A stretch of 64,000 nt of DNA from Carcharhinus amblyrhynchos (lineage: Eukaryota), in assembly GCA_965287045.1 (NCBI GenBank), contig OZ336871.1, positions 55,676,001 through 55,740,000 on the forward strand. The letters are read 5' to 3'. How positions within the stretch are numbered: position 1 is the first letter of the stretch; the number at the start of each line of letters is the position of its first letter. A program made the position numbers. Shown piece after piece: positions 13,980 to 16,900 of the stretch.

Positions 13980-16900
13980 TGATTTTATTCAGTGCATTGA
14001 GCTATATTTTGAGGACCATTCACAAAAACACTGGCCAGTCATTAAATATAGCTTTGTAGTGCAGTAAAACTTGTTAATTCTTTTCAATGAAAACATTTGA
14101 ATTAAATATGCAAGTTATGCTTAAGGAAGAAAAGTGAGTCCAGATTTGAGTGAAGCATATAATGCAATGTAAAATTGCTATTGCACAAAGATCCATTTTA
14201 AGTCAGCTACTGGTGGTGCTTTAAAAAAAGCTGGACTATTGTAAAGCAAATTTTTAAATATTTACCTGACTGTGATGGAACAATATTACAAATAATCCAC
14301 TTTTTAAATAGGCAACAACATAGAAGTTATTAAGATGTTTTAAACTTCCTGTTTCAGATTTCTTTGTTTAAACAAATAAGCTGAGGGCGGTATCTATGTC
14401 TTGTTACTTTTGTTCTTTTTTCCTCCAGAGTCATAAAGACTATAGCAACATATTTGTTATGACCTGCCCATCCTAATGTGTTTTTCAGTTTCTTGGGTGT
14501 AACCATTTTTATTTCAGTCTTACCTATTGTGTGCTGTAAGAGTTAACCCCTTGTTGGTAATTTCTCACATTAAAAGAACAAATGCACAGACCAAATCTAG
14601 GATGTTTCTGACGTGAGTACTTGCCTTGATTGTTAGACAATTTGAGGTCGTTCGGTCAATTTTTGTTGCTAGATCTCCACTATCCACTGATTTAAAATGG
14701 ACCTTTGTGCAATAGCAACTTTACATTGCATTATATGCTTCACTCAAATCTGGACTCACTTTTCTTCCTTAAGCATAACTTGCATATTTAATGAGAGATG
14801 TATGCTGTTAAACACTCTTCACTCAGTACACTTCTAAGTTCCTGTACGAATAGTGCAGAGGGCTCCTTTTTTCCATTTTTTAACATTTTAACTTCCTTTA
14901 TTAGAACTAGAAATCTAATTAAAGTAAATAAATGGATCTTTTTCAACAACAATATAGCATGAGACCATCCTTAATGAAGGTCTACACATTCTTTGTTTTA
15001 ATGGATAAATGCATCATTATCAACTAATTCTTAGGACCATGAATAATCTGCTTCACATAATTAGTGCTCGGTATAGTGAAAGAGACAAACCTGATTTAAT
15101 TGATGATTGAGTTGATAGAATGTGAGTTTACTATCAAATAAATCGGTTGGACTTAAACCTGGTGTTGTCAGACTTTTTACTGTGTTTACCCCAGTCCAAC
15201 GCCGGCATATCCACATCATGCAGCACAGACAGAATTTCAGAGTGCCCTGAGATTAGAACACACCAACTTCTTCCCAGAGCTCAGTGAATTAAGCCAGTGA
15301 GTAGCTTGGCCATTTAGGACAAGATGGCTTAAGGTTCAACCTCTGACCTTTGCTAAGTTAGTTGATCGCAGCCAAATCAGTTGTATTGTGTATCTGGCCT
15401 AACAAAGGGAATGTTACCAGAGTTCTTGCTCCTGATTGATATTCAACAGTCTCATTGAAAATGCACGTGTGAACACTGCTTGAGGACAGTACCAGGCTCT
15501 GTGGATATATTCCTCAGTCTAATTGCTTGTCAGTACTCTCTGTCAAGCTCAAAACTGAATGACACTGGCTTAATGAGGTTAGTGCTGGGCAACCAATACT
15601 GCATCAAGGACTCAGTACCTACAGAGGATGGAGTAAATTAATAAGGATAACAAAATGGCACATGTGAAAGTCACGATGTGGAGAGCCAGTGTTGGACTGG
15701 GGTAAACACAGTAAGAAGTCTCACAACACCAGGTTAAAGTCCAGCAGGTTTATTTGGTAGCAAACACCACTAGCTTTCGGGACTCTGCCCCTTCGTCAGG
15801 TGAGTGGGGCGTTCTGATTACAAGCAGGTCACATCTGATTACAAGCAGGTCATATAAAGACACACACTCAGTTTACAGAATACTGATTAGAATCCGAGTT
15901 TTTACAGTTAATCAAGTCTTAAAGGTGCAGACGTGAGTAGAGATAGCGCTAAGCATGGGTTAAAGACAGTGAGAGACAATACACAAATCTTTAATCAAAG
16001 TATGTTCTCTAATTTATACAAACAATGATTTTTTAAAAAATCTATTTTGTACTCAATTTATAACTTTCCTACTTTGGTGGTGAGGACCCGTTGTAATGTA
16101 CAATAACACAAACTATTTGTTATGACTACATAATAAGGCCAGAAATACTATCAGTATGTATTTTGCTGTGTGGCACTTGGACATACCATCATCTTTATAT
16201 GTTGTACCCCAAGTAAACGTAAGATCATTTGCATTGACAGCGAACAGTGAAACTGCAAAACAAAATCTTATTAGTTCATATCAAAGGTCAGTCTTTTAAG
16301 TTTTTCAGAAATGTTATTTCAGTGATATCCTATGAGCTTGCACTAAATCCAAGGACTATTTTCTCCAAAGATTGTCCTAATACCTATGAATTCCCAGAAA
16401 TTACTGATCTCTTGAAATAATACCACCAACCTATGCTAATTTAAACCACAGTAGAATGGCCTACTCCCGTTTCCAGTTACTAAATTTCTAGGCGTGGCAC
16501 AGTGGTTAGCACTGCTGCCTCACAGTGCCAGGGACTGGGTTCAGTTCCAGCCTTGGATAACTGTCTATGTGGAGTTTGCACAATCCCCCTGTTTCTGCAC
16601 GGTTTTCCTCCAGGTGTACCAGTTTCCACCCACCGTCCAAAGATGTGCGGGTTAGGTTGATTGGCCGTGTTAAATTGATCCTAGTGTCAGCGGGATTAGC
16701 AGGGTAAATATCTGGGGTCATGGGAATAGGGACTGGGTGGGATCGTGGTCGGTGCTGACTCAATGGGCCAAACGTCCTCCTTCTGCACTGTAGGGATTCT
16801 ATGATTCTATGTTTATTTGTTTCAGACAGGAGGGTAATTAATTTAAGCAGCCCTGATTTCTCCTCTCATCACCCATTAGTAAACAGAAAGGTGTTTCTTG

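What the first reader, a model, noticed from the sequence alone, without database searches (positions are those of the whole stretch)
14101..14792. 106-bp near-perfect inverted repeat, not recognisably TE-derived, 130 nt downstream of the C1 exon
Seen: arms 14101-14206 and 14687-14792 differ at only 3 positions. In the CHN2 pre-mRNA these would be two A-C mismatches and one G-U wobble. The arms match no other repeat I noticed in the window and show no TIR/TSD signature I recognise. Weak similarity continues inward, suggesting an older, longer repeat with a homogenised or selected core. Known: long intronic duplexes with A-C mismatches are preferred ADAR substrates and can alter splicing next to weak donors, and this donor (G|gtagag) is weak. 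Inference: a regulatory RNA stem, or the ends of an invertible 480-bp segment, or an unknown MITE.
Basis: partly seen in the sequence, partly recalled or inferred. Interest (0 to 1): 0.72.

Follow-up and report, generated by a model that had tools for sequence, protein, structure and literature searches.

The report
Young intronic inverted repeat, probably neutral
A real 106-bp near-perfect inverted repeat sits just inside a long intron of a chimaerin gene, but it looks like an ordinary young transposon-like or duplication-derived hairpin rather than a regulatory device.

Summary
Arms 14101-14206 and 14687-14792 are complementary at 103 of 106 positions. On the gene's + strand this gives two A-C mismatches and one G-U, with a 480-nt spacer, 129 nt past a C1-domain exon.

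- **Uniqueness:** the arms and spacer have no second copy in the 64-kb window.
- **Known families:** there is no Rfam match, tRNA, tandem repeat or long ORF.
- **Target-site duplication:** no non-palindromic duplication of 5 bp or more exists at any offset. Only a palindromic TTAA/TA at the repeat's tips and a 2-bp GA remain.
- **Age:** arm divergence (2.8%) equals that of the youngest LINE copies in the window.

Best reading: a neutral, young DNA-level inverted repeat. It is most likely a low-copy non-autonomous TA/TTAA-type transposon, or else a one-step local inverted duplication. It would passively form dsRNA in the pre-mRNA.

Genome copy number, orthologues, RNA editing and haplotypes could not be tested, because no eukaryotic genome collection was available.

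The parts
14101..14206 (+). Left arm of the inverted repeat (106 nt, 31% G+C, no CpG)
   Evidence: 103 of 106 positions complementary to 14687-14792; perfect runs of 73/16/10/4 bp
14207..14686 (+). 480-nt spacer, unique in the window, 34% G+C, with no internal symmetry beyond at most 20 nt at each edge
   Evidence: Longest stop-to-stop ORF is 62 aa. No tandem repeat, tRNA or Rfam match.
14687..14792 (+). Right arm of the inverted repeat (106 nt)
14102..14105 (.). TTAA at the left tip (mirror TTAA at 14788-14791). This is the only candidate target-site duplication, and being palindromic it cannot be told apart from repeat sequence.
   Evidence: Exact direct matches occur only for palindromic TTAA, TA, ATAT and TGCA inside the repeat end, plus a 2-bp GA outside it.
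13887..13971 (+). Context: upstream coding exon (first part of the C1 domain) with donor CAG|GTAGAG at 13972
   Evidence: Pfam C1_1, E 4.7e-8; sequence read
13972..32650 (+). Context: host intron of about 18.7 kb. The next coding exon (rest of C1) lies at about 32651-32827.

Best explanation
The 692-bp unit (two 106-bp arms around a 480-bp unique spacer) is a real, evolutionarily young and selectively neutral piece of DNA. It lies 129 nt into the ~18.7-kb intron that splits the C1-domain coding sequence of a beta2-chimaerin-like gene in a non-human, LINE-rich genome. Its most likely origin is the insertion of a low-copy, non-autonomous (MITE-like) DNA transposon with ~106-bp terminal inverted repeats at a TA or TTAA target. 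Both arms lie on the transcribed strand of one intron, so the pre-mRNA should fold them into a 106-bp duplex with a 73-bp perfect run. Such a duplex is a generic, passive substrate for ADAR hyper-editing and is discarded with the intron. Shown: the repeat, its sharp borders, its uniqueness in the window, the lack of a non-palindromic TSD, the gene context and strand, and the predicted fold. Inferred: the transposon origin, neutrality, and editing.
For: (1) The architecture is that of a class II non-autonomous element. It has symmetric arms with sharp inner and outer borders, a total of 692 bp and no coding capacity.
(2) The tips read A|TTAA|ATATGC...GCATAT|TTAA|T. A TTAA TSD, or its central TA, is therefore possible. 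No TSD of 5 bp or more exists at any offset, and no exact match of 7 bp or more lies within +-25 nt.
(3) As a positive control, the same search on another inverted-repeat element in the window (54949-55848) found an intact 12-bp TSD. An 8-11-bp TSD beside arms that are 97% alike should therefore have been seen.
(4) Arm divergence is 3 of 106 (K2P 0.029, 95% CI 0.6-8%). This equals the 2.1-2.8% between the youngest LINE 3' ends in the window, so nothing beyond ordinary youth is needed.
(5) The RNA fold has MFE -269.6 kcal/mol against -152.7 +/- 5.1 for 20 shuffles (z -22.9), with the arms pairing end to end. The duplex passes the dsRNA criterion used in editome work: at least 80% identity over at least 50 nt within +-2 kb (passages of PMC9989829).
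(6) Tc1/mariner, hAT, PIF-Harbinger and Helitron DNA transposons are reported in a shark genome (passages of PMC8455134).
(7) My rough prior, which is inference and not a computed result, is that intact young DNA-transposon copies are commoner per kb than local inverted duplications of 100 nt or more.
Against: There is no second copy of arm or spacer in 64 kb. This is weak evidence, because a family of hundreds of copies in a Gb-sized genome would rarely recur in 64 kb. The termini (ATATGC... after TTAA, or AAATATGC... after TA) do not resemble the canonical ends I recall for piggyBac (CCC...GGG) or Tc1/mariner (CAGT-type); those ends are recalled, not tested. A palindromic TTAA/TA in a 69% A+T tip is expected often by chance. 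Arms of 106 bp are long for a MITE. G+C of the unit (0.31-0.36) is continuous with both flanks (0.30-0.39), whereas the neighbouring repeat-built block at 15100-15800 stands out at 0.43-0.46. None of the 10 longest of 34 stop-to-stop ORFs of 110 aa or more gave a transposase domain; two matched RVT_1 reverse transcriptase and one matched ALKBH8_N. piggyBac was not detected in the whale shark (passage of PMC8455134). Genome copy number, the defining test, could not be run.
Confidence: 0.5

Rival explanations
1. Local one-step inverted duplication. During replication or break repair, a template switch copied ~106 nt of local intron sequence in reverse orientation 480 nt away. This created a perfect inverted repeat that has since picked up 3 substitutions. 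It is not a mobile element and is likewise neutral.
For: The arms are unique in the window. No TSD is present. Base composition is continuous with the flanks. The termini are unlike the canonical transposon ends I recall. Template-switch mutations are documented to create perfect hairpin-forming repeats in one event, and to be abundant in genic regions: more than 50,000 inferred on the primate lineage to human (abstract and passages of PMC10710096).
Against: The events named in the passages I read are 28 and up to 83 bases, with hairpin stems of 30-55 bases. This copy is 106 nt long and lies 480 nt from its source (the supplementary length tables could not be opened). There is no microhomology at either junction: the base pairs next to both the inner and the outer borders are mismatches. 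My rough prior, an inference, favours transposon copies at this size.
Confidence: 0.3
2. Selected regulatory RNA stem. Under this reading the duplex is maintained by selection to recruit ADAR, or to modulate use of the nearby GTAGAG donor of the C1 exon.
For: The duplex is very stable and lies on the sense strand 129 nt from the donor. The donor matches MAG|GTRAGT at -3 to +3 but not at +4 to +6. The two A-C mismatches are of the type that ADARs edit well (established knowledge, not tested here).
Against: No comparative, RNA-seq or population data could be brought to bear. Arm identity needs no selection, because it equals that of the youngest LINE copies. There is no Rfam family. The hairpin starts 129 nt beyond the U1 binding site. 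The intron is ~18.7 kb, so the stem merely loops out 692 nt of it. The next exon's donor, GAG|GTTTGA, is at least as far from consensus and has no such stem. One of the two mismatched adenosines (14191) has a 5' G, the neighbour ADARs disfavour (sequence; the preference is recalled). The window holds several other long intronic hairpins built from repeats, so such stems are commonplace here.
Confidence: 0.05
3. Ends of an invertible 480-bp segment. Recombination between the arms would flip the spacer, either as a switch or as a polymorphism.
For: Inverted repeats are the substrate for such inversions (established knowledge). The arms are 97% alike with a 73-bp perfect run.
Against: The spacer contains nothing that would read differently when flipped: no ORF over 62 aa, no RNA family and no tRNA. 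No site-specific recombinase is encoded nearby among the ORFs scanned, which were 10 of 34. Only one haplotype is available, so orientation could not be compared.
Confidence: 0.03
4. Assembly artefact, meaning a chimeric or fold-back read.
For: Nothing positive. It is considered only because palindromic artefacts exist.
Against: The arms differ by three substitutions and are separated by 480 nt of unique sequence with no N. An artefactual fold-back of one template would give identical arms and little or no spacer.
Confidence: 0.03

Closest known systems
Non-autonomous class II transposons with long terminal inverted repeats (MITE-like, TA- or TTAA-target superfamilies such as Tc1/mariner and piggyBac/Kolobok)
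   Same: Symmetric terminal inverted repeats with sharp borders, total length under 1 kb, no coding capacity, A+T-rich, and TTAA/TA at the very tips.
   Different: No second copy was seen in 64 kb. The termini are unlike the canonical ends I recall. The candidate TSD is palindromic and so proves nothing. The 106-bp arms are longer than in most MITEs. There is no compositional break with the flanks.
Hairpins created by template-switch mutations (PMC10710096; abstract and passages read)
   Same: A unique local sequence is present twice in inverted orientation. The copies were near-perfect at origin and have a few later substitutions. The location is intronic and there is no TSD.
   Different: The events named in the passages I read are 28 to 83 bases with short loops. 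Here the copy is 106 nt and the loop is 480 nt. The ancestral state is unknown.
Intronic inverted repeat pairs that form ADAR-edited dsRNA, such as inverted Alu pairs (PMC9989829 passages; PMC4053975 search listing and start of abstract only)
   Same: Two reverse-complementary stretches lie within 2 kb on one transcript, far above the threshold of 80% identity over 50 nt.
   Different: In those pairs the arms are two independent insertions of an abundant family. Here the arms match no repeat in the window and share both borders exactly. Editing was not observed, only predicted.
The palindromic insertion at 54949-55848 of the same window
   Same: A young intronic inverted repeat in the same gene; its 373-nt arms are complementary at 371 of 373 positions.
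   Different: That element has an intact 12-bp TSD (ACCTGGAAGCCA) and ends that belong to a repeat family with at least 5 loci in the window. The target has neither.

Membership tests
MITE / non-autonomous DNA transposon | Terminal inverted repeats | tested here: met
   103 of 106 positions complementary, with sharp borders
MITE / non-autonomous DNA transposon | Target-site duplication flanking the element | tested here: inconclusive
   Only palindromic TTAA/TA at the tips and a 2-bp GA; nothing of 5 bp or more at offsets -6..+12, and no exact match of 7 bp or more within +-25 nt
MITE / non-autonomous DNA transposon | Multiple dispersed copies in the genome | not testable with these tools
   0 further copies in the 64-kb window. 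No eukaryotic genome collection was available. A 22-nt exact scan of the prokaryotic genome-contig collection gave 0 hits, which says nothing.
MITE / non-autonomous DNA transposon | Small size and no transposase ORF | tested here: met
   692 bp; longest stop-to-stop ORF 62 aa
hAT, Mutator, Merlin, P, Transib (TSD of 5-11 bp) | Non-palindromic TSD of 5-11 bp | tested here: not met
   None at any offset. The same search recovered a 12-bp TSD at 54949-55848 as a control. The TSD lengths per superfamily are recalled.
piggyBac | TTAA TSD and CCC...GGG termini | tested here: inconclusive
   TTAA is present at both tips but is palindromic. The termini after TTAA read ATATGC...GCATAT, not CCC...GGG (the canonical termini are recalled).
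Tc1/mariner | TA TSD and CAGT-type termini | tested here: inconclusive
   The central TA of TTAA could serve as the TSD. The termini would then read AAATATGC, unlike the recalled canonical ends.
Template-switch mutation product | Source arm present and target arm absent in the ancestor or outgroup | not testable with these tools
   No orthologous sequence was available
ADAR-edited intronic dsRNA | Intramolecular duplex of at least 50 nt at 80% identity or more within +-2 kb on the transcribed strand | tested here: met
   (strand); the criterion comes from PMC9989829 passages
ADAR-edited intronic dsRNA | Clustered A-to-G differences between RNA and DNA | not testable with these tools
   No RNA-seq was available
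Known structured RNA families (miRNA, snoRNA and others in Rfam 15) | Covariance-model match | tested here: not met
   Within 13000-16500 at E up to 1, the only match is a chance-level one at 16389-16431, outside the repeat. There are 0 matches at gathering score in the whole window.

The most novel reading that the evidence does not exclude
The stem is a lineage-conserved, selected dsRNA element of the chimaerin pre-mRNA. Its two A-C mismatches would be specific ADAR sites, and its formation would tune use of the sub-consensus GTAGAG donor of the C1 exon or inclusion of a poison pseudo-exon in its loop (14430-14612). It would be kept near-perfect by selection or gene conversion rather than by youth.
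Probability: 0.04. Interest if true: 0.55.

Novelty: new member of a known kind. Interest (0 to 1): 0.15.

Why it matters
As it stands it matters little. It is one more young intronic inverted repeat in a repeat-rich genome, and it would be a routine entry in a repeat library or an editing-site catalogue. It would matter only if comparative data showed the pairing to be conserved. It would then be a rare non-mammalian case of a selected long intronic duplex beside an exon that encodes part of a diacylglycerol-binding C1 domain. If it proved to be single-copy, it would be an unusually large example of a one-step template-switch hairpin.

Tried and rejected
- **Second copy in the window:** blastn with word size 7 on the element with 50-nt flanks, a whole-window self-blast, and a tiled local alignment with shuffled-arm nulls found nothing above chance.
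- **Older, longer repeat:** gapped and ungapped tests inward and outward gave only a marginal 9 of 17 and 10 of 20 next to the arms.
- **TSD searches:** I searched the whole unit, each arm alone in case of two independent insertions, and asymmetric borders within +-25 nt. Nothing turned up, and 50 of 200 random 692-bp spans gave an exact 7-mer by chance under the same search, so short matches would not have counted anyway.
- **Feature scans:** Rfam (E-value mode on 13000-16500 and gathering mode on the whole window), ARAGORN and Tandem Repeats Finder found nothing in the element.
- **Coding capacity:** no ORF over 62 aa was found in the unit.
- **Autonomous partner:** a Pfam scan of the 10 longest of 34 ORFs of 110 aa or more found RVT_1 twice and ALKBH8_N once, and no transposase.
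- **Relation to the neighbouring pair:** I checked whether the pair at 15126/15765 (81-nt arms, 478-nt spacer) is the same kind of element. It is not; its arms are copies of an abundant window-wide family.
- **Prokaryotic scan:** an exact 22-mer scan of the prokaryotic genome-contig collection gave 0 hits and is uninformative.
- **Literature:** four searches turned up no description of this element, or of a chimaerin intron hairpin, among the papers listed. Those searches were not aimed at the gene name, so this is no claim of absence from print.

Full report
**Observation.** Positions 14101-14206 and the reverse complement of 14687-14792 agree at 103 of 106 positions. The repeat finder reports the same pair, extended to 123 nt at 91%, and blastn gives 97.17% over 106 nt with E 1.3e-46. 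On the + strand the three differences are 14174 A opposite 14719 C, 14191 A opposite 14702 C, and 14202 G opposite 14691 T. In a + strand transcript these are two A-C mismatches and one G-U, as stated. All three are transitions, none lies in a CpG, and the arms contain no CpG at all. The perfect runs are 73, 16, 10 and 4 bp, and the spacer is 480 nt. The window has no N.

**Gene context.** The + strand carries a chimaerin-type gene.
- The exon at 13887-13971 matches Pfam C1_1 (E 4.7e-8).
- The next coding piece, at about 32651-32827, carries the rest of C1 (E 1.1e-4).
- Three further pieces (42043-42120, 48886-49023, 57933-58094) match RhoGAP.

Searched one exon at a time against solved structures, two exons score best against human beta2-chimaerin: 118.2 against 112.7 bits, and 70 against 67.9 and 66.3 bits, for the alpha (N-) chimaerin chains. 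I searched the exons one by one and left out the joined spliced model.

The same alignments show 3 of 59 and 7 of 46 residue differences from the human protein. I therefore take the contig as non-human.

The left arm begins 129 nt after the exon, inside an intron of about 18.7 kb.

**What the repeat is not.**
- It matches no other sequence in the window. The best other hit to an arm is 35 nt at 80% (35511-35545), with a score that 1 of 20 shuffled arms also reaches. The whole-window self-comparison lists no partner for the arms, the spacer or the flanks.
- It has no Rfam match, tRNA-like sequence or tandem substructure, and no stop-to-stop ORF over 62 aa.
- It is not two independent insertions of a short element, because neither arm has its own flanking duplication.
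- It is unlikely to be an assembly artefact. The arms differ by three substitutions and enclose 480 nt of unique sequence.

**Borders.** Outward there is no further complementarity. Inward, the first 17 and 20 positions match at 9 and 10 places. The nominal P is 0.014-0.03, and 380 of 20000 random 20-mer pairs do as well. From 20 nt on, the match rate is at background (1-4 per 10 until the centre of the spacer). Gapped alignments anchored at the arm edge over 17, 30, 60 and 100 nt were equalled by 358, 235, 181 and 869 of 1000 shuffles. The best local alignment between the two spacer halves was equalled by 332 of 500 shuffles. There may be a degenerate extra ~17 nt, but there is no sign of an older, much longer repeat.

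**Target-site duplication.** I tested every trim from -6 to +12 nt and every TSD length from 2 to 12.
- The only exact direct matches are palindromes inside the repeat end (TTAA, TA, AT, ATAT, GC, TGCA) and a 2-bp GA just outside it.
- A wider search with asymmetric borders within +-25 nt found no exact match of 7 bp or more.
- The control worked. Another inverted-repeat element in the same gene, 54949-55848, gave an intact 12-bp duplication, ACCTGGAAGCCA.

The arms here are 97% alike, so a 5-11-bp duplication made at the same time should still be legible. Superfamilies with such duplications are thus disfavoured. What remains is either a TA/TTAA-target element, whose duplication would be hidden in the tips A-TTAA-ATATGC...GCATAT-TTAA-T, or no transposition at all.

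**Age and composition.** The arms differ by 2.8% (K2P 0.029; 95% interval 0.6-8%). Three copies of a ~430-450-bp repeat differ from each other by 2.1-2.8%: 37159-37589, 39980-40432 and 53259-53706. The copy at 39980-40432 overlaps an ORF (40079-41029) that matches RVT_1 reverse transcriptase. The arms are thus as young as the youngest interspersed repeats here, and no homogenisation or selection is needed to explain their likeness. G+C of the unit (0.31-0.36) runs on smoothly from both flanks, whereas the repeat-built block at 15100-15800 stands out at 0.43-0.46. That slightly favours a local origin, although A+T-rich MITEs would look the same.

**How common such stems are here.** Six inverted pairs of 40 nt or more within 3 kb exist in the window.
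- Four of them are built from one abundant family of ~100-150 bp: 15126/15765, 36542/36740, 47421/47526 and 54949/55812. That family also occurs at 9203-9289.
- One (28615/31003) is a 78% pair.
- The target is the only pair whose arms are unique in the window.

Long intronic hairpins are therefore routine in this gene. The target is unusual only in not being assignable to a family from 64 kb of sequence.

**Mechanism.** As RNA, 14081-14812 folds with the arms paired end to end. The MFE is -269.6 kcal/mol against -152.7 +/- 5.1 for 20 shuffles, z -22.9. This is far above the threshold used in editome surveys for a potential intramolecular dsRNA: at least 80% identity over at least 50 nt within +-2 kb (PMC9989829, passages). 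I therefore expect passive, promiscuous ADAR editing of the stem in the pre-mRNA and removal with the intron. This is inference; no RNA data were available.

I see no reason to expect an effect on the donor. The stem starts 129 nt beyond it and merely loops out 692 nt of an 18.7-kb intron. The next exon's donor (GAG|GTTTGA) is at least as far from the consensus without any stem beside it, while the two after that are strong (GTGAGT, GTAAGT).

**Origin.** Two DNA-level routes fit.
- **(a) Non-autonomous DNA transposon with ~106-bp terminal repeats at a TA/TTAA site.** The architecture fits, and DNA transposons including TcMariner are reported from a shark genome (PMC8455134, passages). Against it, the termini do not resemble the canonical ends I recall, piggyBac was not detected in that shark, and no second copy or transposase is in the window.
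- **(b) One-step local inverted duplication by template switching.** This mechanism is shown to create perfect hairpin-forming repeats abundantly in genic regions (PMC10710096, abstract and passages). However, the sizes named there (28 to 83 bases, stems of 30-55) are smaller than here, and no junction microhomology is seen.

On rough priors, which are my inference, I put (a) at 0.5 and (b) at 0.3. A selected regulatory stem gets 0.05, an invertible segment 0.03 and an artefact 0.03.

**What stayed unchecked.** The following could not be examined: genome copy number, orthologous introns, RNA-seq editing, and haplotype or long-read orientation. No eukaryotic genome or read collection was available. 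The one open DNA collection holds prokaryotes only, and an exact 22-mer scan there gave 0 hits, which says nothing. Supplementary tables of the two papers that could refine the priors were closed.

**Verdict.** The feature is real but ordinary in kind, its origin is unresolved between two mundane routes, and there is no evidence of function.

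Noticed in passing
window 54949-55848: This is a ~900-bp insertion bounded by an intact 12-bp target-site duplication (ACCTGGAAGCCA). It contains a near-perfect palindrome: 373-nt arms complementary at 371 of 373 positions, with a 118-nt spacer. Its ends belong to the abundant repeat family listed in the next item. It looks like a retroposed copy whose cDNA snapped back on itself; that mechanism is my inference.
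   Followed up: partly
window 9203-9289, 15121-15220, 15670-15816, 36542-36780, 47421-47567, 54949-55058, 55703-55850: One abundant ~100-150-bp repeat family occurs at 5 or more loci in 64 kb, often in hairpin arrangement. Examples are 47421-47526 (51-nt arms, 4-nt loop) and 36542-36740 (91-nt arms, 17-nt spacer). It also builds the 81-nt inverted pair at 15126/15765, about 330 nt downstream of the target. I did not identify the family.
   Followed up: partly
window 37159-37589, 39980-40432, 53259-53706: Three copies of a ~430-450-bp repeat are 97.2-97.9% identical. The copy at 39980-40432 overlaps an ORF (40079-41029, - strand) that matches RVT_1 reverse transcriptase, so these look like 3' ends of a recently active LINE. 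They serve as an age yardstick for the target's arms.
   Followed up: partly
window 14400-14618 (inside the spacer): A polypyrimidine tract plus AG ends at 14429, and a consensus-like donor GTGAGT lies at 14613. Together they delimit a 183-nt pseudo-exon, 14430-14612. In the frame set by the upstream exon it has a TAA at 14474-14476. This rests on motifs only, and such pairs are common by chance in introns.
   Followed up: partly
window 32828-32834 and 42044-42050: The intron after the second C1 exon begins GTTTGAA. The next exon also begins GTTTGAA, right after its acceptor. This is probably coincidence, but it makes the exon 2 donor (GAG|GTTTGA) notably far from the consensus.
   Followed up: no
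window 61569-61761: Overlapping direct self-matches (80-87% identity, offset ~67-75 nt) indicate a short tandem array. It was not examined further.
   Followed up: no
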